DNA of 64,000 nt from Candidatus Borrarchaeum weybense. Lineage in GTDB: Archaea > Asgardarchaeota > Sifarchaeia > Borrarchaeales > Borrarchaeaceae. Position numbers and translations under genes: made by a program. The notes below the pieces were generated by a model. It worked only from the letters and a program-made list of their open reading frames with translations, was not told the origin of the DNA and searched no databases. Shown here piece by piece: positions 954-12,768 of the stretch (position 1 is the stretch's first letter; each line of letters begins with the position of its first letter). The stretch covers positions 224,001-288,000 of the forward strand of contig JAHQJS010000004.1 of the NCBI GenBank assembly GCA_019057385.1. Direction: 5' to 3'.

Positions 954-2324
954 TCAATTGTTTTTTATGAGGTTATAGATAAGAATATCAGGTCCATTCT
1001 GAGCTAGATCTCTTATTTTTCCAGGCAGAGCATATTCTTGGATCCCTGCCAAAGGTGATGTGAGGACACCAATAATTTGCGTGAATATACTAAATCCGAG
1101 TAATATGTAAAAGAAAACCCAAAAATACCTATTGGATGAAAACTTTTCTAGAGTTTTTCCTAACGGCAATACAAAACATGGAAGAATATCTGTTAAGAAT
1201 CGAGGACCAAAAGACAGTCCACCATGCCACCATGTATATGTTGAATAGAATAAAAGAATGGCAAAGAATGAAAGGATAAACAACGTTGCCTCTTCTTTAT
1301 TTGATTTAAAGAAATAGAAAAATCCAGGAATTGACAAAATCAAAATTGGCGAATAGATAAATAAACCTCTTCCAGGGCTGAATAGAAGCCCATATAAGCC
1401 AAAGAAAGGGTTTGTCGAAAATACTGAAGAAATCGAAGTATAATCATAAAGAAGATCGTAATAATATCCCATAATAAATGGATTATCAAAACATAGAAAG
1501 TTATAGAAAAGGAGTAATGAAAGGGCAGGAACTGTTCCGATAATAAAAAGAATGAAGGTTTTCACTATTTGTGATTTTAATACAAAATAAATCAAGATAG
1601 GTATACTTATGAGAATATTTGAGAACCTTACAGTAACTGCTATCCCCATAATAATGCCTGCGAAAAAATGTCCATTGGTTTTCTCATATTTTGTATTTAA
1701 TATAACCAGATATACCACAAAGAAATTCAAGAACATAGATAATGATTGGGCATAGAAAGTCTTAGCATATATCCATGAGGTCGTGCCGAAAGCTAGTGTT
1801 ATTGATGTAAAAAGAGCGGAATTATCATTAAATTCCAGTTCAGTTAATAGATTATGAAACAGTACAATGGTTAAAGCAGCGGAGATTGAACTAAGCATCG
1901 CCATTGGAACGTATGTAACTGAAATGTAAGATAAATTTATTCCTAGGGAATTTAATAGTATCCAGATTCCTTTTCCGATTAAAAAGAAGGGAATGGCGAT
2001 AAAAGATTGGCCTGGTGGTAATGTGGAGTAATAATGTCCATTATAATAACCAATGCCCATTCTTGATTCTAATTTCCAAGGTGTGTATATTTCCAGTGCT
2101 TGATCGACATACAAATTCTGGAAATCGGTGATTGATACTGTTAATAACCAATAGCTAGATTCATCAGGAGAATAATAATGTGCGATTGAAACTGAGTATA
2201 TTATAAAAGTAAGAAGAAATAACTTAAATCTAGTTTTGTCATTCCAAATTAAATTTATAATGAAATCTGCGATATCTTTAAATTTATTGCGAATTGAGAA
2301 GATTCTCACTCTTGATAGCACCAT
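954..2324 (-). CDS. GT-C-fold membrane glycosyltransferase (PMT_2/GT39-like)
   Basis: Multi-TM protein with SPDE in the first external loop, YYSTLPPGQS, GLLFSPGRGLFIYSP and WWHGGLSFGPRFL. Start placed at ATG 2324 because the track start (2453) overlaps the divergent gene. Confidence 0.8.
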   Translation of the reverse strand: MVLSRVRIFSIRNKFKDIADFIINLIWNDKTRFKLFLLTFIIYSVSIAHYYSPDESSYWLLTVSITDFQNLYVDQALEIYTPWKLESRMGIGYYNGHYYSTLPPGQSFIAIPFFLIGKGIWILLNSLGINLSYISVTYVPMAMLSSISAALTIVLFHNLLTELEFNDNSALFTSITLAFGTTSWIYAKTFYAQSLSMFLNFFVVYLVILNTKYEKTNGHFFAGIIMGIAVTVRFSNILISIPILIYFVLKSQIVKTFILFIIGTVPALSLLLFYNFLCFDNPFIMGYYYDLLYDYTSISSVFSTNPFFGLYGLLFSPGRGLFIYSPILILSIPGFFYFFKSNKEEATLFILSFFAILLFYSTYTWWHGGLSFGPRFLTDILPCFVLPLGKTLEKFSSNRYFWVFFYILLGFSIFTQIIGVLTSPLAGIQEYALPGKIRDLAQNGPDILIYNLIKNN

Positions 2325-2373
2325 AACTTTCTTATAGCCTTGTTCTTTCCATCTTGGGCAACGAGGTTGTGTA

Positions 2374-4176
2374 ATGTCTAAAATCTGGCGGTCTAACACT
2401 TTTATTTTATTAGTGCTTTTTTGCGTTTCTGTTCTTATTAGGGTTATTCCCATGCAAAAATGGGTTTATGGATTAGATGAAGCTATGCATCTAATTGCAC
2501 CCTCTTTTCTTGCAGGATCTAAAGACCCAGGTACCAAACCAGGCTACGCTTTTATATTGATCATTATTTTTATAATTCTAAATAGTCAGCATCCATTTTT
2601 TGCGCGGTTGTTGACAGTTATCTTTACAAGTTTAATACCTTTTGTTGGTTTTTCTTTTGGCAAAAAACTTGGAGGAGAAAAGACTGGTTTGATTACTGCA
2701 ATTTTCTTAACGTTTCATCATAGGCTTTTTGATCTTTCCTACTGGATTATGACAGATGTTCCATTCACATTTCTCTCATTTCTTAGTACTTATTTCGTCG
2801 TCTGTAATGTTCAAAAGTCTGAGAAATCTGAAACAAATATACATCTCACATTAATTACAGGCATACTTTGTGGGCTCTCATATTTATTTCGACAAATAGG
2901 GATTTATCTTGTCCTCATGGTTATTCTACTGTATTTTGTAACAAAGGGCAACTTGGCAGTCAAGTTTAAGGGTTTTATTGGATTTTTTATGGGAGTAACA
3001 ATCATGTTATTTCCATGGTTTCTTTGGAGTTATATTCAATTTGGTGTTTTAGACCCTGCTACTTCTGTTATTAATATTTCTTCTTTTCCCGTTATCCATG
3101 TCAATTTATTGACCTATATTTTGCTTTTCCTTGTCCTAACCGCTTCTAGTGTAATAATATGTTTGATAATTCATTATAGAAACAAATATTTTGGAATAAA
3201 AAAACAGCTTGGTATTTTTGTTGCATGTAGCATTTCTGCCTTCTATGTTTTTGCATTAATTTATTTTGTATATTTTAAAACAAAAGGTGTCTTTAAACTT
3301 CTACTTTATTATTTCGTACAAATACCTGGGTTGGTATTAGGATTCGATCTAATTAATCAGTATCAGGTAACTCCTTATGCTATCATCATTTCAATCATTA
3401 TCTTCCAAATTTTATTAGTTGGACTTGTGATCGGCTATCGAATGAACAGGCTATTTACGAGGGTTACCCTACTCTCCATTATTATATTGCTTATATTTTT
3501 GGTGAACATTATTTATTATAAATCACGCTATTTTTATCCAATTATTCCTTTGCTAACACCCTTTTTGTGGATTGGGTTGTTTAAAATCAGGGATTCTTCA
3601 ATTTCCGTTTTACGAAAATTTTACTATCGGTATCCTAACTATTTTAGAAAGGGTTTCTTACTCTCATTTCATAGATCATGCAGTCTTATCATAAGCATTA
3701 TGTTTATCACTGTAATTCTATTTCCGAATATTGTAGCAGACGGCTTAGCAAATAATGATTATTTATCAACTGATGACATGGTTGTTACATCTCCATTATG
3801 GAGAGAATATATCGAGGCTGCTCTTTGGTTTAAAGAAACTAGTGATCCGCAAGCTAAAGTGATGGCATTTAAAAACTTTGATTTTGAGTATTATTCGCAA
3901 CGAAAGTGTATCGCACCGTCTCAACGAATATATAATGAATACTTTCGAAACAATAAACAAGCATATGTCACGGAATTAATGACTTATATGAAGGCAAACA
4001 ACATAACCCATATCGTTTTTGGGCCTTTTGGATATTCAGATAATATCCTATTTTGGCTTTCTGATCCAGATACAGCACCTTCTTATGTAGAAGTAATTTA
4101 CTTAAGAAATTCGCCTAAAGTAATCATATATTTGATTCAATGGTCCAAATTTACGCCAGCATCTCCTTTTGATTAA
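2374..4176 (+). CDS. GT-C membrane glycosyltransferase (ArnT/PMT_2-like) with extracytoplasmic C-terminal domain
   Basis: GLDE loop, MTDVPF, RYFYPIIP and C-terminal AALWFKETS...YYSQR; GAGGT upstream of the ATG. Confidence 0.82.
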   Translation: MSKIWRSNTFILLVLFCVSVLIRVIPMQKWVYGLDEAMHLIAPSFLAGSKDPGTKPGYAFILIIIFIILNSQHPFFARLLTVIFTSLIPFVGFSFGKKLGGEKTGLITAIFLTFHHRLFDLSYWIMTDVPFTFLSFLSTYFVVCNVQKSEKSETNIHLTLITGILCGLSYLFRQIGIYLVLMVILLYFVTKGNLAVKFKGFIGFFMGVTIMLFPWFLWSYIQFGVLDPATSVINISSFPVIHVNLLTYILLFLVLTASSVIICLIIHYRNKYFGIKKQLGIFVACSISAFYVFALIYFVYFKTKGVFKLLLYYFVQIPGLVLGFDLINQYQVTPYAIIISIIIFQILLVGLVIGYRMNRLFTRVTLLSIIILLIFLVNIIYYKSRYFYPIIPLLTPFLWIGLFKIRDSSISVLRKFYYRYPNYFRKGFLLSFHRSCSLIISIMFITVILFPNIVADGLANNDYLSTDDMVVTSPLWREYIEAALWFKETSDPQAKVMAFKNFDFEYYSQRKCIAPSQRIYNEYFRNNKQAYVTELMTYMKANNITHIVFGPFGYSDNILFWLSDPDTAPSYVEVIYLRNSPKVIIYLIQWSKFTPASPFD

Positions 4177-4235
4177 CTGGCGATTCTTTGAGAAACAATG
4201 TGCTTTTTCGGCCAGATATTTGAATTTGTGTTAAA

Positions 4236-4468
4236 GATTTTACAAAGTTAGATTAGTGAACTACCATCCAACAAGTGGAATGGCTTCCTGCTTCACAGAC
4301 GACCTGCGGCGTCTCTAACCATACCGTTACCTGGTATCGGCTTAACACAGGCTTTAAATCGGGTAGTCCCTGCCCTAATGTGTCCCCTTCCAGACCCACT
4401 GGGCTTTACGGCATACAGGGTTCAGAAGGGTACTCGCATGCCGACCTCTTGCCTGCAGGTAGACACAT
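4236..4468 (-). ncRNA. Putative stand-alone TnpB-type omegaRNA (reRNA): 5' structured domain, scaffold and flank-derived guide
   Basis: The segment GGGCAGGGACTACCCGATTTAAAGCCTGTG...GAAGCAGGAAGCC...GGTAGTTCAC (4375-4256) matches the typical tnpB 3'/right-end RNA pattern. Its stems contain G-U pairs only on the minus strand. Predicted guide about TAATCTAACTTTGTAAAATC (4255-4236). RNA ends are inferred. Confidence 0.68.
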
Positions 4469-4579
4469 GTCATATGTGTGCGAAAACCTATTTAAAATTT
4501 AGAGTGACATGGGTGAAAGTGAAAATAGTAATGCACTTCATCCCCCCAACACGATGAGGGGTCTTCTTGCGAAGAAATG
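4256..4579 (-). mobile_element. Non-autonomous IS200/IS605-family miniature element (no tnpA or tnpB)
   Basis: Minus strand reads TTTAT|CATTTCTTCGCAAGAAGA-CCCCTCA-TCGTGT-TGGGGGG-ATGAA (left-end hairpin, 4561-4542) ... GAAGCAGGAAG-CCATTCCA-CTTGT-TGGATGG-TAGTTCAC| (right-end hairpin and TTCAC terminus). It is visibly more GC-rich than its flanks. Confidence 0.8.
4489..4497 (-). promoter_or_regulatory. Archaeal TATA box (TTTTAAATA), probably driving the omegaRNA
   Basis: Its 5' end lies about 30 nt upstream of the first paired base of the structured RNA (4468). An ACACAT-N5-ATGTGT inverted repeat overlaps the predicted start site. Confidence 0.5.
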
Positions 4580-4737
4580 ATAAAATAACTTGAGAAAAAA
4601 TGGACGAACTCACATTGAGTAATGAAGATGACATTATGAAAATCGGATAAGATTATGAGTAATCTAGTTAACTTTGATAACAATAAAATTATCTTTACAG
4701 AAACGTGAATAAAATTTAGATTGGAGTTCAGCAATCT

Positions 4738-7098
4738 ATGCGCGGTGTCCTTTTCGGATTAGGTGTTCTTAGTCTATCCCATGTATTGCTAGTTATATGG
4801 CGATATGGAATCATTCCTTTGTCTTTTGTTTGGCCAATTAGTTTAATTTGTATTGGAGTTATCATTCTTGCGATTTCAGAACTAATAGGGAAGGAGGTAA
4901 CTCGATTCCTTGAGTGTATAACTACATCACATAAATATGCTCTTAGTTTTATAATTCTCGTTTCAGTATTAGCGAATCTTTCCTTAATAGGCCCGGGTAA
5001 TATCCATGGAGACGGTATTTTTCATGTATTCAAAGTTTGGTATTTAAGAAAGGCATGGATGAATGGAATTTTCTATCCAATATGGTGTCCTTACTGGTAT
5101 TCAGGGTATCCTTTTTTGGAATTTTATGGTCCACTTTTCTATGTCTTTGCCGCTTTACTTTCCTTAGGCACAGACTGGATGACAGGCTCTAAGTTTGCAA
5201 TTTACTTTGCGTGTATATTATCATCTCTGACTATGTATGGTCTTATTTATGTTATTACTCAAGATAGATTGGGAGGAATAGTAGGAGGGCTAGCATATAC
5301 TCTTACTTACTATAAATTTCCTCTTTTAACCAAGTTTGGGCATCTTGCTAGCAGTTTAGAATGGTTTTTTCTGCCATTATTATTCTTATTCTTGGAATTA
5401 GCTATTAAAAGAGAAAAACACATTTTTGCTGTATATGCAGGTTTTTGTTGGGCGGGAATTTTTCTTACTCATGCAGGAGACGGATATATGATCTCTTTTT
5501 TAGTAATATTCTATCTTATAATCTCAAGTATAATTAAGTTTAATTTAGAAAATATATACTTCATAGGGCGATTAGCCTTGATTTCAGGGACTATAACATT
5601 GGGTTTATCTGCCTTCTTTTTAATACCTTACCTGCTTGATAGTGTTGAAGCAAATACGAGATTATTTGTATACCCTGGAAAGCTAGGAGACCCCATATCC
5701 TTACCTTTAATTCTCACGAGAGATTTTGTACACATCAATCAACCATTTCCTATTTACATAGGGAATTCAATTCTGATAATAGCGTTTTTAGCAATCTTTC
5801 TTCGAAGAAATAGAGCATCGATTGTTTACACTGCTTCTTTACTCTTTTCTTTATTTTTTGTTCTAGGCTCAGCAGTTCCGTTTTATAGCGAAATTCCTCT
5901 TATTACTAGCCTAGATTATTTTCCTTATCGCTTTTTACTATTAGTTAGTTTTGTGGCATCAGTACTATCTGGTCTCACAATCGCCTCACTTAAAGATATA
6001 CAAAAACCATTTTCAGCCTATTTAAAGAAATTTAAATCAAAGCGTAAGCTTCAAAAACACTTAATCGTTGTGTTGATGGTTATCATAGTTATTGATTTGT
6101 GGCCGGGGACATTAATTTCCAAAAATCGCCCCTTATCTTGGATGCTTGATGATAACTGGATAAATACCTATAATTGGCTTAATGAACATCCCGGTTATCA
6201 CAAAATCATCAGATTAGATAGAGGAGGTCCTCCTAATTATGCTTATCATGCCATTATAGGGAATACATTCGATACTGCTGGTGCGTTTGGTCAAGCTGAG
6301 AATCAAGAGTATTCATCTTTTAAAATCAAATTTGAGGGAGACATAAAATCTTTAAAAAATACTCCTAGAAAGGGATTACTAACTCCCTTAAGACTTTTAG
6401 GTGTCAGATATTTGATTATAGATAGTTCTCGTAGTTATGCTAAATACTTGATTGAATCTTCTAAATTGGATATAATGCAGACTAATGGCAACGTAATGAT
6501 TCTAGAATATAACGAATATACTTCGCCTGTTATTATTTCTCAAGCAGCTGCACTTGTTGAAGCAGATAATGAAATCAATGAATATTATTCTTATGTAACA
6601 GATCCAGATTATGATCCTTCAAAAATGATTTTTCTTAAGGCAACAAAATTTGATTACGAATCAAATGTCCCACTTAACTTGCCTGAGGATTTTATAGATG
6701 ATAAAAGTAACTTCAATTCCGATACACTTGAACTAGAGATTAAGGAGAACACGATCTCTGCAAAGGTATATATCTCTGCTCCTTCTTTTGTATATTTCAG
6801 TTTTAGCTACTTTCCTGGCTGGAAAGCCTTGGTTGATGGGACAGAAAGTAATATCTTAATTGCAGAACCAAATTTTATGTGTTTATACATTGATAAGGCT
6901 GGAACACATAACATCTCACTTAAATATAGTTTAAATCCGCCGAAAACTGTCGGAATAGTTATCACATTAAGTACCTTTCTGGTGTCACTTTTTATGATGG
7001 CCTGGCCTTCTCGACAGACATTTAAAGAAACTATAGAACTGATTATATTCAGAAAACGCAAAGGAAAAAAAGTTAATCAAGATCTCAAAAAAAGTTAA
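4738..7098 (+). CDS. GT-C-like membrane protein (PTPS-related membrane domain plus YfhO-like C-terminus), paralog 1
   Basis: HGDGIFH, WCPYWYSGYPFLEFYGPL, FPYRF and a C-terminal YFPGWKALVDG motif. Confidence 0.82.
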   Translation: MRGVLFGLGVLSLSHVLLVIWRYGIIPLSFVWPISLICIGVIILAISELIGKEVTRFLECITTSHKYALSFIILVSVLANLSLIGPGNIHGDGIFHVFKVWYLRKAWMNGIFYPIWCPYWYSGYPFLEFYGPLFYVFAALLSLGTDWMTGSKFAIYFACILSSLTMYGLIYVITQDRLGGIVGGLAYTLTYYKFPLLTKFGHLASSLEWFFLPLLFLFLELAIKREKHIFAVYAGFCWAGIFLTHAGDGYMISFLVIFYLIISSIIKFNLENIYFIGRLALISGTITLGLSAFFLIPYLLDSVEANTRLFVYPGKLGDPISLPLILTRDFVHINQPFPIYIGNSILIIAFLAIFLRRNRASIVYTASLLFSLFFVLGSAVPFYSEIPLITSLDYFPYRFLLLVSFVASVLSGLTIASLKDIQKPFSAYLKKFKSKRKLQKHLIVVLMVIIVIDLWPGTLISKNRPLSWMLDDNWINTYNWLNEHPGYHKIIRLDRGGPPNYAYHAIIGNTFDTAGAFGQAENQEYSSFKIKFEGDIKSLKNTPRKGLLTPLRLLGVRYLIIDSSRSYAKYLIESSKLDIMQTNGNVMILEYNEYTSPVIISQAAALVEADNEINEYYSYVTDPDYDPSKMIFLKATKFDYESNVPLNLPEDFIDDKSNFNSDTLELEIKENTISAKVYISAPSFVYFSFSYFPGWKALVDGTESNILIAEPNFMCLYIDKAGTHNISLKYSLNPPKTVGIVITLSTFLVSLFMMAWPSRQTFKETIELIIFRKRKGKKVNQDLKKS

Positions 7099-7231
7099 AC
7101 TAAGACTTTTTACGCTAGCTTTCATCTCATCTTCAAAAAGAATCATTTAGATATTAACTTAATCGCTGTGTAAGCTGAAGAAAATACTAACTAAATCCTT
7201 GAATGTAAATTTAGAACCGGAGTTCAAAACT

Positions 7232-9568
7232 ATGCGTGGTTCTCTTTCAGGAATTGGAATTCTTAGTCTTTCACAAATTTTATTAGTCCTTTGGCGATAT
7301 GGACTTCTTCCCTTCTCTTTAATTTGGCCTATTCTTTTGAGTTGCTTAGCAGTTATTATACTGGTGGTTTCTGAATTGTTATGGCACGATGTAACAACCT
7401 TCGTTGAATTAATGACTACTTCTCATCGATTTGCACTTGGTTTCATTATTCTAATTGCCGCATTGGCGAATCTCACTTTAATAGGTCCTGGTTATATTCA
7501 TGCTGATGGTATTACTCATGCTTTTAAGGTGTGGTATCTTAGGAAAGCGTGGCTAAATGGAAGCTTTTATCCACTTTGGTGTCCCTATTGGTATTCAGGA
7601 TATCCATTTCTGGAATTTTATGGCCCTCTATTTTATGTTTTTGCTGCTTTACTTTCCTTGGGAACAGATTGGATGCTTGGCTCTAAACTGGCTCTGTATC
7701 TTGCATGTATAATGTCTCCCCTCGCCATGTATGGTCTTGTATATGTCATTACTGAGGATAGACTTGGAGGAATAGTGGGAGGGGTAGCCTATACCCTTAT
7801 CTACTATAAATTTCCTCTATTAACGAAGTATGGACATCTTGCTAGCAGTTTGGTGTTGATTTTTCTTCCTTTATTATTCTTATCTTTTGAATTAGCCATT
7901 AGAAAAGAAAAACAAGTGTATGCGATATTAGCAGGTTTTTGTTGGGCTGGGGTATTCCTTTCTCATCAAGGAGCCGGATATATGGTCTCTCTTTTGGTAT
8001 TTTTTTATCTTCTATTTTCCTGTGCTATTAAGTTCAAATTTGAAAATATCTACTTAATAGGTCGCATATGCTTAATTTCAACAGTCGTAGCGTTAGGTCT
8101 GTCTTCCTTCTTCATTATACCTTACTTTATAGATGGTATTGGAGCAAATACAAGAATCTTTGATTCACATTGGCTAGGATATCCTATATCTCTACCCTTA
8201 ATTCTGACAAGAGATTTTGTAAACGTTTATCAACCGTTTCCTGTATATATTGGGGATTCTATATTGGGAATAGCTTTTGCAGCGATATTTCTGCGTAGAA
8301 CTAGGTCAACCATCGTATATACTGCATTGTTGCTTTTTTCGTTCTTTCTTGTACTCGGATCAGAACTTCCATTCTATACTGCAATTCCTTTTATTGTCAG
8401 TCTTGAATATCCGTATCGATTCCTCATACTAGTTAGTTTTGTGGCATCAGTATTATCTGGCATTGCAATTTCATCAATAAAGAATATACAAAAACCATTT
8501 TCAGGGTATCTTATGAAACTTAAGTCGAATCCAAGAATTCAAAAAAGGGTAATCGTAATATTGATGGTCATTATAATCATTGATCTATGGCCAGGAACCT
8601 TAGTTTCCAAAAACAGACCTTTGGATTGGTTAGTTGATGATGAATGGTTAGGTGCCTATAATTGGCTTGATACACAGACTGGTTACCATAAAATCATGAG
8701 ATTTGGGAATTCTGGACCCAGTTATGTAGTTTCTTCTTCTATTATTGGAAACACATTCGACACCGCAGGCTACTTTAGACAATCTACGAATAAAGATTAT
8801 GGTGAGTTTACCTCCACATTTAAGGGAGAAATAAGATCATTGAATAATGCCCCTAAAAAAGGGCTTCTAACGCCTCTTCAACTTTTAGGTGTTAAATATG
8901 TGCTTTTAGATACTTCTAAAAATTATGCTACACATTTAGCAAAATCATCTGAATTAGAAGTAGTGCATACTTCCGGCAAGGTAACTATTTTGGAATATAG
9001 TGGATATACTTCCCCGATCATAATTTCTCAGTCTGCAGCGCTTGTTGGAGGCGAAAACGAAATCGATACTTTCTATGATTATGTAACAAATCCAGATTAT
9101 GATCCTTCTAAAATGATTTTTCTCAAAGAAGATCAGTATTATAACGACATTGAGACCCCTCTCCAATCTTTTGAGGACTCAATAGAGTATGACGCCAGTT
9201 TTATGTCACAAATTATTGATTTAGAGGTGAGAGAAGACATTATCTTGACAAATATATTTGTTTCTGCATCTTCTTTTGTATTTTTCAGTTTTAATTTCTT
9301 CCCTGGCTGGCATGCTTTAGTTGATGGAAAAGAAAGTAAAATCCTAATAGCGGAACCCTTTTTTATGTGTATATATCTTAACGAAGGCGGAACGCATAAT
9401 GTCTCGCTTAAGTACCAGCTTAATACACCTAAAACAGTAGGATTACTAATTACACTGAGTACATTATTTGTAGCACTCTTTGTTACGTTTTGGTCGTATA
9501 AACAGAAAATCAAAGAGATAATAGAACAGAGCTTATTGAGCAAATACAGAGGATGGAGAACTAAATGA
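7232..9568 (+). CDS. GT-C-like membrane protein (PTPS-related/YfhO-like), tandem paralog 2
   Basis: Colinear with paralog 1. ATG 7232 chosen because MRGSL aligns with MRGVL and both starts follow GGAGTTCA. Confidence 0.82.
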   Translation: MRGSLSGIGILSLSQILLVLWRYGLLPFSLIWPILLSCLAVIILVVSELLWHDVTTFVELMTTSHRFALGFIILIAALANLTLIGPGYIHADGITHAFKVWYLRKAWLNGSFYPLWCPYWYSGYPFLEFYGPLFYVFAALLSLGTDWMLGSKLALYLACIMSPLAMYGLVYVITEDRLGGIVGGVAYTLIYYKFPLLTKYGHLASSLVLIFLPLLFLSFELAIRKEKQVYAILAGFCWAGVFLSHQGAGYMVSLLVFFYLLFSCAIKFKFENIYLIGRICLISTVVALGLSSFFIIPYFIDGIGANTRIFDSHWLGYPISLPLILTRDFVNVYQPFPVYIGDSILGIAFAAIFLRRTRSTIVYTALLLFSFFLVLGSELPFYTAIPFIVSLEYPYRFLILVSFVASVLSGIAISSIKNIQKPFSGYLMKLKSNPRIQKRVIVILMVIIIIDLWPGTLVSKNRPLDWLVDDEWLGAYNWLDTQTGYHKIMRFGNSGPSYVVSSSIIGNTFDTAGYFRQSTNKDYGEFTSTFKGEIRSLNNAPKKGLLTPLQLLGVKYVLLDTSKNYATHLAKSSELEVVHTSGKVTILEYSGYTSPIIISQSAALVGGENEIDTFYDYVTNPDYDPSKMIFLKEDQYYNDIETPLQSFEDSIEYDASFMSQIIDLEVREDIILTNIFVSASSFVFFSFNFFPGWHALVDGKESKILIAEPFFMCIYLNEGGTHNVSLKYQLNTPKTVGLLITLSTLFVALFVTFWSYKQKIKEIIEQSLLSKYRGWRTK

Positions 9569-10644
9569 CCAAAGCACAAAAAAAAGTGTTAAAACTCCTT
9601 ACGCCAGGTTTTATTACACCGCATAAGGGGGTTCATTTAGTCTTTGACGCTATTGATGGGCTCAATGACGTGGAATATATTGTCGCAGGTTCAATTAGAA
9701 CTGATTCACGTGTTCATAAGACATACTTGACAAAAATAAAAGAAAATGCTCCTTGTAATGTGAAAATAATTGAAAAATTCTTTTCGAAAGAGGAGTTTCT
9801 TGAAATAATTGCAGATAGCGATATAGTTATTTTACCTTATTTAGATGTATCTCAAAGTGGCTCTGGAATTCTCCATTTATCATTAGGTCTTGGAAAGCCG
9901 ATTATTGCCTCAAAAATTGGAGAATTCGTAGAATTATTAAGAGGAAACGCTTTATTGGTCGATCCTTACGATAAAATTGCATTAAGAAACGCTATTCTTA
10001 AAATGAAGAATAGCAAATTGAAGAAGTTTTATGAATCTCGTACAAAAGAATTAGCCTCTAAAACATCATGGAGCAACATTGCTAATGAACATCTCAAAAT
10101 ATATCGTAATCTGCTAAAAACATATCATCCTTCACACATAGCGATAGTTAGTACCTTTGGGGAACGTTGTGGCATAGGCGAATATGCATCATTCTTGGCA
10201 AACTCGTTAGAAAATCAACAACTGAAAGTTCTGCGGATTAAACTTAAGAAGAACTGGAGTTTTAGCATCGCTTTGGTGAAAATTATTGATCGGTACCATC
10301 CCCAACTTGTGCATATACAATTTGAATATGGTTTATTCAAATGTTTTCCATTTCTCCAGATAGGCACTTCTATTTTACTCTTCTATTTCCTCTCAAAATT
10401 ATTTAACGTTAAAACAATAACAACAATGCACACTGTTTATAACCCTCATTATCTCTGGAACAAAAAATGGAAGAATATATTATCAAGGGTTGCAGGAACG
10501 TTTTTGCGAGTATTCCTTGTGAAATTAATAACCGTAATGTCAAATCGAATTATAGTACATACAAATGAATCTAAAAAGGCGCTTTCAAACGACAAGAAAA
10601 CGTTTGTAGTGCGTCACGGCACATTGATTAAAAGGCGCAAATAA
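9565..10644 (+). CDS. Circularly permuted GT4 glycosyltransferase
   Basis: Donor-domain motifs (GFITPHKG, ILPY..SQSGSG, GKPIIAS, SWSNIANEH) come before acceptor-domain motifs (IAIVSTFGERCGIGEY, VHIQFEYGLF, TTMHTV, IIVHT, VVRHG). Confidence 0.85.
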   Translation: MTKAQKKVLKLLTPGFITPHKGVHLVFDAIDGLNDVEYIVAGSIRTDSRVHKTYLTKIKENAPCNVKIIEKFFSKEEFLEIIADSDIVILPYLDVSQSGSGILHLSLGLGKPIIASKIGEFVELLRGNALLVDPYDKIALRNAILKMKNSKLKKFYESRTKELASKTSWSNIANEHLKIYRNLLKTYHPSHIAIVSTFGERCGIGEYASFLANSLENQQLKVLRIKLKKNWSFSIALVKIIDRYHPQLVHIQFEYGLFKCFPFLQIGTSILLFYFLSKLFNVKTITTMHTVYNPHYLWNKKWKNILSRVAGTFLRVFLVKLITVMSNRIIVHTNESKKALSNDKKTFVVRHGTLIKRRK

Positions 10645-11589: not shown

Positions 11590-12768
11590 ATGTCAATAAA
11601 AATAGATACAAGTAGAGAACTTGAGGAGATCCATCTTAGTCTAACTCGAATTCTCGACGAAAGGGATAGATTATTCCCAAAACACGATCCCCAAAATACA
11701 AAAGATGTGCGAAAGATCCTCAAGGCATATGCAAATGTTCTTAAAAGTATAGAAGTGCCAAACTGGGAGCCCGATAATAAACTTATAGACTCAGCGAAGA
11801 ATTTGACCCAAAAATGTGTTTTCATCTGTGGTTTCATGAAAAGTGGAACAACATTACTTTTAGAACTCTTGGATAACCATCCTGAACTTATTGTCATGCC
11901 TGGTGACTCAAATCTGATAAATTGGATAAATAATACGCTGAATACACCTTTAGAGGAGCGTCTAACAAATTGGGATGTGCACTGGATCTCTCGCCTTATC
12001 AATCCCACAGGTCAAAAACCATTCTGGATAATGGGTGAAAAAGTTCATCCATATTTGGAATTTCTTTACTATCTAAATTATTGGCTTGAAGATTTACCTT
12101 CTTCTGACACTAGCCCTTTTATTGCAGTTGTCTTAGCTTTTTATTGTGCAAATCCACAGCGTGCAACCGATCCTAAGTTTTGGGTTGAAAAAAACCCTAG
12201 GAATGAATTGAAAGTTGATCAGATCTTAAACTATTTTCCTTCTGCACGTTTCATTCACATTATACGTGATCCTCGCTCGAATATGGCTTCCTTGAAGCGA
12301 CGTTGCAAACTCCATAAATTGAATTGGGATGTAGAAGGTTATTCTTATGCAATCCAGAAATCAAATAAACTCGGATTTTTTTACCAAAAAAGACTTGGAA
12401 AAAGCAGGTATCATATTTTACGATATGAAGATTTAATAAAGAATCCAGAAATTGAGATGAAAACTATCGCTAATTTCTTAGGAATCAAAATTGACAACAA
12501 TCTGCTTTACCCTACAGTGAATGGTCTTCCCGCCAAATCAAATACAATGTTCAAAGATAGACAGATCCAAGGCAAAATTTTTGCCAACTTAAGCGAGAAA
12601 TGGCGAACTGAATTAGACCTTTCTGAGCAAAAGGAAATATATGCTATTTTATATCCTATAGCAAAACGTCTAGGTTATGATTGGAAACTTGGATCTATTA
12701 GTTGGGCTAATTATCTTTACTATTGCCAAGCTAGGATTAGATATCTTGCATCTCGAATGCTTAAATGA
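11590..12768 (+). CDS. PAPS-dependent sulfotransferase (Sulfotransfer_3-like)
   Basis: 5'-PSB motif GFMKSGTT, WVEKNP, 3'-PB motif HIIRDPR and RYEDL. Alternative TTG start at 11572. Confidence 0.88.
   Translation: MSIKIDTSRELEEIHLSLTRILDERDRLFPKHDPQNTKDVRKILKAYANVLKSIEVPNWEPDNKLIDSAKNLTQKCVFICGFMKSGTTLLLELLDNHPELIVMPGDSNLINWINNTLNTPLEERLTNWDVHWISRLINPTGQKPFWIMGEKVHPYLEFLYYLNYWLEDLPSSDTSPFIAVVLAFYCANPQRATDPKFWVEKNPRNELKVDQILNYFPSARFIHIIRDPRSNMASLKRRCKLHKLNWDVEGYSYAIQKSNKLGFFYQKRLGKSRYHILRYEDLIKNPEIEMKTIANFLGIKIDNNLLYPTVNGLPAKSNTMFKDRQIQGKIFANLSEKWRTELDLSEQKEIYAILYPIAKRLGYDWKLGSISWANYLYYCQARIRYLASRMLK

What the first reader, a model, noticed from the sequence alone, without database searches (positions are those of the whole stretch)
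4236..4584. Protein-free IS200/IS605 mini-element carrying an apparently self-transcribed TnpB omegaRNA
Seen: within 324 bp on the minus strand are TTTAT, a left-end hairpin, a TATA box, a GC-rich structured RNA, a TnpB-type scaffold and a right-end hairpin ending in TTCAC. There is no tnpA or tnpB coding remnant: no RDxNAA motif, and an in-frame stop lies just upstream of the GQGLP-reading segment. Known: in IS200/IS605 elements the right-end RNA plus flanking DNA guides TnpB, and the target-adjacent motif equals the insertion motif. Inference: this is an RNA-only mobile guide cassette, moved by TnpA and loaded by TnpB (or a nuclease-dead derivative) encoded elsewhere. Each insertion would create a new guide, here about TAATCTAACTTTGTAAAATC. 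It could act on the empty allele of this glycan locus or serve as a programmable regulator.
Basis: partly seen in the sequence, partly recalled or inferred. Interest (0 to 1): 0.82.

Follow-up and report, generated by a model that had tools for sequence, protein, structure and literature searches.

The report
Protein-free transposon carrying a guide RNA
This is an intact, gene-less miniature IS200/IS605 transposon in an Asgard archaeon that has kept only its two ends, a promoter and a TnpB-type guide-RNA scaffold; such stand-alone guide RNAs are already known, but this family carries an extra RNA domain and occurs in three archaeal phyla.

Summary
Window 4256-4579 (minus strand) is a 324-bp element with no ORF. 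It follows TTTAT, has a left-end hairpin and a TATA-like box, contains about 210 nt of structured RNA, and ends in a right-end hairpin plus TTCAC.

The genome belongs to the genus of Ca. Borrarchaeum. It holds 4 copies of this type, at least 12 shorter minis and at least 12 full tnpB-only ISs, all with the same ends.

A covariance model built only from protein-free copies hits 88 sites in the genome. Of these, 33 lie at the 3' ends of 33 of the 41 tnpB loci and 55 are orphans. The 3' 110 nt is homologous to the tnpB tail plus right end, which is the omegaRNA core. The 5' 95 nt is a separate, covarying domain found only in protein-free copies.

The same family, with the same layout, occurs in Sifarchaeum, Wukongarchaeum, Methanococcoides, Methanosarcina and Micrarchaeota.

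The resident TnpB is ISDra2-like with apparently intact catalytic motifs. Only one tnpA exists in the genome. Evidence for expression is weak: contigs in two metatranscriptomes. The guide matches only its own flank.

Other first-stage readers of this scan noted similar elements elsewhere in this genome. I class it as a new variant of a known kind, of moderate interest.

The parts
4580..4584 (-). Transposon-adjacent motif TTTAT, immediately 5' of the left end
   Evidence: TTTAT or TTAT lies about 9 nt upstream of the left-end anchor in most of 52 left ends in the genome.
4498..4579 (-). Left end. It contains the subterminal hairpin (stem CCCC/GGGGGG, 4561-4542) followed by ATGAA, and is shared with full tnpB ISs and with the shorter minis.
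   Evidence: About 50 left-end matches at 71-89% identity in the genome. Alignment with full-length and mini elements.
4489..4497 (-). TATA-like box TTTTAAATA. In full elements it lies about 40 nt upstream of the tnpB start codon. Here it lies about 25 nt upstream of the first conserved RNA helix.
   Evidence: TTTAAATAG is conserved at the same place in full, short and long elements. It is also present in Methanococcoides copies. Its function as a promoter is inferred.
4370..4467 (-). 5' RNA domain, closed by the helix GUGUC/GACAC. It contains an invariant CCUGCAGG-like motif, a covarying long stem and an invariant GUAAAGCC. It was found only in protein-free copies.
   Evidence: Alignments A1 and A2. 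Helices 1-4 carry compensatory changes. This domain aligns poorly to tnpB-linked RNAs.
4256..4367 (-). omegaRNA core, homologous to the tnpB 3' end plus right end. In order: the UAGGGCAGGGAC hairpin, AAGCCUGUG, a lineage-specific inserted hairpin (about 4335-4306), the GAGAC/GUC hairpin, UGAAGCAGGAAGCC, the right-end hairpin (4283-4264) and the terminal GGUAGUUCAC.
   Evidence: Model R1 matches the 3' ends of 33 of 41 tnpB loci. Residue-level alignments. Weak blastx match to TnpB C-termini.
4236..4255 (-). Flanking host DNA that would form the 16-20 nt guide of a read-through transcript
   Evidence: This follows from its position directly 3' of TTCAC and from the established omegaRNA layout (PMC10705468). 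It is unique in the genome.

Best explanation
Window 4256-4579 (minus strand) is a non-autonomous, protein-free member of an IS200/IS605 family (IS1341-like, tnpB-only), comparable to a PATE.

It arose from a tnpB-bearing element by loss of almost the whole tnpB ORF. What remains:
- the left end;
- the tnpB promoter box;
- the last ~110 nt of the element, that is the tnpB tail plus right end, which is the omegaRNA core;
- a ~95-nt structured 5' domain that sits where tnpB used to be.

Inferred mechanism:
1. The TATA-like box drives a transcript of about 230 nt that starts near 4467 and runs through the right end into the flank. This yields a scaffold plus a guide equal to the 3' flank.
2. A resident ISDra2-like TnpB binds this RNA in trans. 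About a dozen TnpB genes share this element's ends.
3. If the element is excised, the complex cuts the empty site (TTTAT followed by the guide sequence), and homologous recombination restores the element. This is the published homing model.
4. Transposition would need a Y1 TnpA supplied in trans.

Shown here: the element's anatomy, its copies, its homology to tnpB-linked RNAs, selection on RNA structure, and the presence of the protein partners in the genome.
Inferred: transcription, TnpB loading, cleavage and mobilisation.
For: 1. Repeat family.
- 4 long copies at 86-89% identity, at least 12 minis of about 260 bp, and at least 12 tnpB ISs of about 1.38 kb, all sharing the left and right ends.
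- Flanks differ at each copy, and the junctions fall exactly at TTTAT and TTCAC.

2. Homology to tnpB-linked RNA.
- Model R1, built only from 24 protein-free copies, gives 88 hits in the genome.
- 33 of them end 127-212 nt downstream of a TnpB Zn-ribbon on the same strand. 55 are orphans.
- Alignments show that model positions ~85-182 match tnpB 3' ends with high posterior probability.
- The GQGLP reading matches TnpB tails.

3. Selection on RNA structure.
- 40 predicted pairs, 95.7% of cells paired, against 33-49% when partners are slid.
- 18 pairs carry compensatory changes, against 4-8 when slid. 0 of 500 shuffles reach the observed values on four of the five measures; 8 of 500 reach the count of further pair types.
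- The ghost reading frame is not kept in Methanococcoides copies (alignment).

4. Partners present in the genome.
- The full-element TnpB matches ISDra2 TnpB over its full length (E 2.8e-55). The RuvC motifs GVDVG, YEQL and RDHNSA were read by eye from the alignment and appear intact.
- One Y1 tnpA is present, in an element with the same right-end ending and a similar left-end hairpin.

5. Promoter box. It is conserved in all element types, and the conserved RNA begins about 25 nt downstream of it.

6. RNA libraries. Contigs in two metatranscriptomes from different studies cover 4251-4491 and 4263-4452, while the flanking genes have no cover. This is a weak hint only.

7. The concept is established. 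Stand-alone omegaRNAs work in trans (PMC10691335), and PATEs encode omegaRNAs (10.1101/2023.03.14.532601).
Against: - No Rfam family matches, even at E up to 10.
- The RNA evidence comes from assembled contigs only. They cannot show a start, an end or a strand. One contig begins inside the TATA box and continues into a different flank, so it comes from another copy and could be DNA carry-over.
- The single-sequence folding energy is unremarkable: z-score -0.66.
- The 5' domain has no counterpart in any tnpB-linked RNA examined, so compatibility with the resident TnpB is not assured.
- The only tnpA belongs to an element with TAM TTTAA, not TTTAT.
- The copies in the genome differ by 11-14%, so there is no sign of very recent transposition.
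- The orthologous site in Ca. Borrarchaeum yapensis carries a ~50-nt left/right-end hybrid remnant rather than an empty site. No clean excision or insertion event was therefore observed.
Confidence: 0.75

Rival explanations
1. It is an inert deletion derivative: a decaying MITE-like relic whose interior has no RNA function. It persists only because its ends can still be mobilised, or simply because it has not been deleted.
For: - The copies within the genome are 11-14% diverged.
- One copy lacks its left end.
- The orthologous site in a sister species has collapsed to a ~50-nt remnant.
- No direct proof of transcription was obtained.
Against: - Mobilisation needs only the end hairpins. Yet the ~210-nt interior is conserved with compensatory base changes across Asgard, Methanosarcinales and Micrarchaeota copies.
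- The promoter box is retained.
- The window copy scores as high as the best family members: 187.7 bits.
Confidence: 0.1
2. The 5' domain is an independent cargo RNA, for example a stabilising, processing or regulatory module. It has a function unrelated to TnpB and hitch-hikes on an omegaRNA mini-element.
For: - The 5' domain is a self-contained fold closed by its own helix. It has invariant motifs and was found only in protein-free copies.
- The shorter minis do without it.
- In all five genomes checked, every hit above 120 bits is protein-free.
Against: - It was never found apart from the omegaRNA core and right end in the genomes searched.
- No Rfam family matches it.
- It sits where the dispensable 5' part of tnpB-embedded omegaRNAs lies, so a role within the same RNP is simpler.
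Confidence: 0.1
3. It is a domesticated guide for transcriptional regulation by a nuclease-dead TnpB (TldR-like) acting on the neighbouring glycosylation genes or elsewhere.
For: - TnpB-derived RNA-guided regulators exist (PMC10705468).
- The element lies between two glycosyltransferase-type membrane protein genes.
- The 36 nt of flank next to the right end, together with the first 11 nt of the element (47 nt in all), are identical in Ca. Borrarchaeum yapensis, although the surrounding DNA is only about 82% identical.
Against: - The guide has no second match with a TAM in the genome. The nearest has 2 mismatches in 20 nt and no TAM.
- The 37 exact 16-mer matches in IMG/VR all lack the TAM and do not extend. 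I judge that number to be about what chance would give; the expectation was estimated, not computed by a tool.
- TnpBs that share the element's ends keep the D/E/D motifs.
- The element is multicopy and mobile-looking, not fixed beside one conserved gene.
Confidence: 0.04

Closest known systems
Stand-alone (effector-less) omegaRNAs of OMEGA systems, as summarised in PMC10691335 citing Altae-Tran et al. 2021
   Same: It is a mobilised copy of a transposon-end RNA scaffold with no effector or transposase gene. It sits in a genome that also holds effector-bearing loci, and its guide is set by the flank.
   Different: - It is in an archaeon (Asgard) and retains an archaeal-type TATA box from the tnpB promoter.
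- It carries an extra conserved 5' domain of about 95 nt that is absent from tnpB-linked RNAs.
- Activity in trans has not been tested.
PATEs (palindrome-associated transposable elements) of IS200/IS605, first described in haloarchaea and later noted in Geobacillus stearothermophilus (10.1101/2023.03.14.532601)
   Same: It is a protein-free mini-element bounded by the left and right end hairpins of a resident IS200/IS605 family, and it is inserted 3' of a short motif without target duplication.
   Different: At 324 bp it is larger than minimal PATEs. Its interior is a conserved structured RNA shared across three archaeal phyla, not merely two ends.
ISDra2 TnpB and its omegaRNA/reRNA (PDB 8BF8, 8EXA, 8H1J)
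   Same: - The resident TnpB is a full-length homologue (E 2.8e-55).
- The RNA scaffold spans the tnpB 3' end and the right end, with the guide 3' of the element.
- The TAM has five letters and is T-rich.
   Different: - Here the RNA is detached from tnpB.
- The TAM is TTTAT rather than TTGAT (the ISDra2 TAM is from my own knowledge).
- The RNA sequence is not alignable to any Rfam family.
The shorter (~260 bp) mini-elements of the same genome
   Same: They have the same left end, TAM and TATA box. Their last ~100 nt is near-identical to that of the full tnpB ISs.
   Different: They carry a short, different 5' segment instead of the 95-nt domain. They also lack the inserted hairpin at about 4335-4306.

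Membership tests
IS200/IS605 non-autonomous mini-element (PATE-like) | Left and right subterminal hairpin ends shared with transposase- or TnpB-bearing elements of the same genome | tested here: met
   The left end matches about 50 sites at 71-89% identity. The right end matches at 83-97% identity and is paired with tnpB ISs.
IS200/IS605 non-autonomous mini-element (PATE-like) | Insertion 3' of a short conserved motif, with no target-site duplication | tested here: met
   TTTAT precedes the left end in most of 52 left ends. The two flanks of each copy show no duplication.
IS200/IS605 non-autonomous mini-element (PATE-like) | Several copies at unrelated sites, and no protein-coding gene inside | tested here: met
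   4 copies in the genome, plus copies in 4 related genomes. Only short chance ORFs lie inside.
IS200/IS605 non-autonomous mini-element (PATE-like) | A compatible Y1 TnpA in the genome that can mobilise it | tested here: inconclusive
   One Y1 tnpA is present. Its element has the same right-end ending and a similar left-end hairpin, but its TAM is TTTAA. No empty site or fresh insertion was found.
TnpB omegaRNA (reRNA) | The scaffold is homologous to the RNA that spans the tnpB 3' end and the right end | tested here: met
   Model R1, built from protein-free copies, hits 33 of 41 tnpB 3' ends.
TnpB omegaRNA (reRNA) | Conserved secondary structure supported by covariation | tested here: met
   18 of 40 pairs carry compensatory changes. 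Both controls fall far below the observed values.
TnpB omegaRNA (reRNA) | Match to a curated omegaRNA or IS605-orfB RNA family | tested here: not met
   No Rfam 15 family matches at gathering score, or at E up to 10. This shows only that no curated model covers this lineage.
TnpB omegaRNA (reRNA) | Transcribed as a discrete RNA that extends into the flank | tested here: inconclusive
   Two metatranscriptome contigs cover the scaffold. Contigs cannot give RNA ends or strand, and DNA carry-over is not excluded.
TnpB omegaRNA (reRNA) | Binds TnpB and directs TAM-dependent DNA cleavage | not testable with these tools
   This needs biochemistry or an interference assay. TnpB genes with apparently intact D/E/D motifs are present.
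Archaeal SRP RNA (a reading given by another first-stage note to a look-alike stretch) | Match to the Archaea_SRP covariance model | tested here: not met
   No SRP hit in 4100-4800. The genome's real SRP RNA is at contig C3:11011-11326, at 168.6 bits.

The most novel reading that the evidence does not exclude
The long type is a distinct lineage of RNA-only mobile elements. It has replaced tnpB by its own conserved 5' RNA domain and spreads horizontally among sediment archaea of three phyla (Asgardarchaeota, Halobacteriota/Methanosarcinales, Micrarchaeota). It would act as a hyperparasite of resident TnpB and TnpA. The 5' domain would give it an advantage that ordinary tnpB-embedded omegaRNAs lack, for example stability, self-contained processing or competitive loading onto TnpB.
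Probability: 0.3. Interest if true: 0.65.

Novelty: new variant of a known kind. Interest (0 to 1): 0.45.

Why it matters
Stand-alone omegaRNAs are known, but their biology is open: PMC10691335 states that their role is unknown.

This genome offers an unusually rich natural case:
- 55 orphan scaffolds against 33 tnpB-linked ones, in several families.
- Roughly forty tnpB loci (41 Zn-ribbon matches, some fragmentary) and only one tnpA.
- An Asgard archaeon as host.

The long type adds two things.
- It shows that an omegaRNA can outlive its nuclease gene as an independently promoted RNA gene and acquire a new structured domain.
- It shows that such an RNA-only element can be shared between archaeal phyla.

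The family also provides a ready covariance model for annotating these RNAs, which Rfam currently misses. It gives a compact candidate scaffold for testing which omegaRNA parts TnpB really needs.

Tried and rejected
- **Rfam.** Scans at gathering score (whole window) and at E up to 10 (4100-4800) gave only chance-level hits: snoRNA, c-di-GMP and CRISPR-DR fragments.
- **SRP RNA.** This reading of a look-alike stretch, made in another note, is rejected.
- **Empty site.**
  - The sister species G004 carries a ~50-nt left/right-end hybrid remnant at the same junctions, not an empty site.
  - G001 and G003 have a different gene in the interval, and their intergenic DNA cannot be aligned.
  - The G002 contig ends at the element.
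- **Second guide targets in the genome.** None has a TAM. The best has 2 mismatches in 20 nt.
- **Viral targets.** There are 37 exact 16-mer matches in IMG/VR. None has the TAM and none extends to 20 nt. By my own rough estimate that count is about chance level.
- **A tnpB ORF upstream of the long-type RNA.** None was found in 17 archaeal hits from 185,579 species genomes. None lies near any hit above 120 bits in four further genomes.
- **blastx of the element against resident TnpBs.** Only a weak match to the C-terminal tail (E about 0.09), and no RuvC or Zn-ribbon remnant.
- **Single-sequence folding.** The z-score is not informative.
- **Read laying.** Parts of the RNA runs without cover are not counted as evidence. 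The contigs cannot define a transcript start.

Full report
**Where the window lies**

The window is contig C4:224001-288000 of a 4.18-Mb, 8-contig genome with 36-39% GC.
- A sister genome, G004, carries a copy with the same flank as a record titled Ca. Borrarchaeum yapensis. G018 is Ca. Wukongarchaeum yapensis. G005 corresponds to Ca. Sifarchaeum subterraneum.
- The host is therefore an Asgard archaeon of the Borrarchaeum genus.
- The element lies between a PMT_2-type gene (2374-4176, + strand) and a YfhO-like membrane protein gene (4738-7098, + strand), inside a glycosyltransferase-rich stretch.

**Checking the observation**

Reading the minus strand gives these features:

| Feature | Window position |
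|---|---|
| TAM TTTAT | 4584-4580 |
| Left end starts | 4579 |
| Left-end hairpin | 4561-4542 |
| TATA-like TTTTAAATA | 4497-4489 |
| GC-rich structured stretch | 4467-4256 |
| Right-end hairpin | 4283-4264 |
| Terminal TTCAC ends | 4256 |
| Flank that would form the guide | 4255-4236 |

The boundaries have independent support.
- The four long copies in the genome are alignable exactly between these two junctions and unrelated outside them.
- Contigs from DNA runs of other studies leave the window sequence at 4256 and at 4579. Depth inside the element is several-fold higher than in the flanks.
- Across 52 left ends of this kind in the genome, TTTAT or TTAT sits about 9 nt before the conserved anchor in most cases.

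**The repeat family**

BLAST of the element against its own genome gives 82 matches. They sort into three types:
- Four long copies of about 335 bp, one of them truncated at its 5' end.
- At least a dozen short minis of about 260 bp.
- At least a dozen elements of 1.34-1.39 kb, each carrying only a tnpB gene of about 385-400 codons.

All three types share the left end, the TTTAAATAG box about 100 nt into the element, and the right end ...CAGGAAGCC-hairpin-GGTAGTTCAC.

In the full elements:
- the box lies about 40 nt before the tnpB start;
- tnpB stops 61 nt before the element's end;
- the last codons (...SSSGQELPVEPG) overlap a hairpin, GGGCAG/CTGCCC.

The short minis keep the last ~100 nt almost unchanged. 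The long type, to which the window copy belongs, has a diverged version of that part plus ~95 nt that match nothing else in the genome at the DNA level.

**Is the interior an omegaRNA?**

No Rfam family matches. I therefore ran the test in the opposite direction.

An exact-pattern scan for two invariant motifs of the long type, across one genome for each of 185,579 species, returned 17 archaeal hits. The remaining hits were chance matches inside bacterial ORFs. The archaeal hits came from:
- Borrarchaeum, Sifarchaeum and Wukongarchaeum;
- Methanococcoides alaskense and Methanococcoides MAGs;
- Methanosarcina;
- two Micrarchaeota MAGs;
- one contig binned as Actinomycetota.

None has a tnpB-like ORF upstream, and all end in GTTCAC.

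Twenty-four sequences were aligned (A1, A2).
- RNAalifold predicts 40 pairs, 18 of them with compensatory changes.
- On the named structure, 95.7% of cells pair, against 33-49% when partners are slid by 1-3 columns.
- The covariation score is 0.357, against 0.056-0.097 when slid. 0 of 500 shuffles reach the observed values on four of the five measures; 8 of 500 reach the count of further pair types.

The covariance model R1 was built from these protein-free copies only. It finds 88 sites in the window's genome.
- 33 sites end 127-212 nt downstream of a TnpB Zn-ribbon match on the same strand. That covers 33 of the 41 tnpB loci, from at least three TnpB subfamilies.
- 55 sites have no tnpB nearby.

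Residue-level alignments show what is shared. Model positions ~85-182 align to tnpB 3' ends with high posterior probability, whereas positions 1-85 do not. The shared part runs from UAGGGCAGGGAC to GUUCAC.

In Wukongarchaeum the homologous DNA still codes for the TnpB tail ...LGQGLSEFTP.... A weak blastx match links the window's GQGLP frame to the tail of a second resident TnpB subfamily.

So:
- The 3' ~110 nt (4367-4256) is the omegaRNA core, derived from the tnpB tail plus the right end.
- The 5' ~95 nt (4467-4370) is a separate domain, closed by the helix GUGUC/GACAC. I found it only in protein-free copies.
- In the five genomes examined in detail, every hit above 120 bits is protein-free. 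tnpB-linked hits score 74 bits or less.
- The ghost frame is interrupted in Methanococcoides copies, while the helices are kept. Selection therefore acts on the RNA, not on a peptide.

**Partners**
- A representative TnpB of the full elements (P0001, 388 aa) has the HTH_OrfB, OrfB_IS605 and Zn-ribbon domains.
- It aligns over its full length to ISDra2 TnpB (8BF8, 8EXA, 8H1J; E 2.8e-55). Read by eye from the alignment, it keeps the RuvC motifs GVDVG, YEQL and RDHNSA, so an active nuclease is plausible.
- The genome has a single Y1 transposase gene. Its element ends in the same GCAGGAAGCC-hairpin-GGTAGTTCAC and has a similar left-end hairpin, but it follows TTTAA rather than TTTAT.
- Mobilisation of the TTTAT family by this TnpA is possible but not shown.

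**Expression**

The TATA-like box is conserved in all element types, and in Methanococcoides copies as well. The conserved RNA begins about 25 nt downstream of it, which fits an archaeal promoter. This is inference.

Two metatranscriptome libraries from different studies contain relevant contigs:
- one of 301 nt that covers 4251-4491 and runs on into a different flank;
- one of 190 nt that lies wholly within 4263-4452.

The neighbouring genes have no cover in those runs. But contigs cannot show ends or strand, the first contig starts inside the TATA box, and DNA carry-over cannot be excluded. I treat this as a weak hint only.

**Guide and targets**
- The 20 nt after TTCAC are unique in the genome. 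The nearest other match has 2 mismatches and no TAM.
- Of 37 exact 16-mer matches in IMG/VR, none has the TAM and none extends. By my own rough estimate that count is about what chance would give.
- This fits the homing logic, in which the guide matches the element's own empty site. It gives no support to a regulatory or antiviral role.

**History of this copy**
- In Ca. Borrarchaeum yapensis the orthologous intergenic site carries, at the same two junctions, a ~50-nt hybrid. The hybrid joins the first ~30 nt of a left end to the last ~20 nt of a right end through the hairpin core that both ends share.
- This is not a TnpA excision product, which would be scarless. It looks like a deletion between the two similar hairpins.
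- The site was therefore already occupied before the two species split, or it was hit twice.
- A similar solo remnant exists in the window's genome at contig C7:843378-843411.

**Distribution**
- Within Asgardarchaeota, the long type was found in 5 of 151 genomes searched (3 of 52 genera). The other genomes had no match at E 1e-25.
- With the Methanosarcinales and Micrarchaeota copies, which have the same TTTAT, hairpin, TATA box, RNA and GTTCAC layout, this patchiness suggests horizontal spread. No tree test was done.

**Comparison with what is known**
- PMC10691335 states that stand-alone omegaRNAs lacking effector and transposase occur in genomes with effector-bearing loci, that they function in trans, and that their biological role is unknown.
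- Meers et al. note PATE-like elements that often encode omegaRNAs which must be used in trans by TnpB.
- The kind is therefore known.
- I found no description of three points in the papers searched: the Asgard setting, the retained archaeal promoter box, and above all the conserved extra 5' domain restricted to protein-free copies and shared across phyla.
- Other first-stage notes of this scan reported similar protein-free cassettes elsewhere in this genome. They also reported the 5' module itself.
- One note on another genome read a look-alike stretch as SRP RNA. That is not supported here.

**Verdict**

The feature is real and well defined. The proposed activities remain inferred. I class it as a new variant of a known kind, of moderate interest.

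Noticed in passing
L090 about 2306-2360 (G004 contig C124, about 11826-11870), orthologous to window 4256-4579: At the same two junctions, the sister species carries only a ~50-nt hybrid of left-end start and right-end tail, joined through the shared hairpin core (CAACTTGTTGG). This is not an empty site. A similar solo remnant lies in the own genome at contig C7:843378-843411.
   Followed up: partly
window 4220-4266: 47 consecutive bases are identical between this genome and Ca. Borrarchaeum yapensis: the 36 nt of flank next to the right end plus the first 11 nt of the element. The surrounding flank is about 82% identical. The reason is unknown. It could be the 3' region of the upstream PMT_2 gene.
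   Followed up: no
own genome, e.g. contigs C6:27475-27594, C4:611696-611817, C8:162205-162325, C4:762436-762603, C7:326766-326933: There are further protein-free families with their own left-end hairpin (AAGCACCAC.../GTGGTGATGAA), a TTTATATAG box and scaffolds of ~120 or ~170 nt ending in GGTAGCTCAC. In all, 55 orphan scaffold hits stand against 33 tnpB-linked ones.
   Followed up: partly
own genome, contig C7:194221-195886 (L101): This is the only Y1 tnpA of the genome. It sits in an IS605-type element with a 427-aa TnpB. The TAM is TTTAA, and the right end again ends in GGTAGTTCAC.
   Followed up: partly
own genome, contigs C4:1265105-1266763 and C6:738268-739944: Two TnpB-like ORFs of about 545 aa have a Zn-ribbon match but no match to the omegaRNA model downstream. 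Six other tnpB loci also lack a model hit.
   Followed up: no
L067 (CAYYBB010000016.1, 19-kb contig binned as Actinomycetota): A complete long-type RNA ending in GGTAGTTCAC sits on a contig assigned to a bacterial MAG. This is either mis-binning of an archaeal contig or a transfer.
   Followed up: no
window 954-10644: This is a run of membrane glycosylation-type genes: two PMT_2-like, one YfhO-like, one PTPS_related membrane protein and one GT1/GT4 glycosyltransferase. The element sits in one of the intergenic gaps.
   Followed up: partly
own genome, contigs C5:308911-309170 and C8:152632-152876: Two short minis carry the right-end hairpin variant of the long type (CCATTCAACTTGTTGGATGG) on a short-type scaffold. 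This suggests exchange of ends between subfamilies.
   Followed up: no
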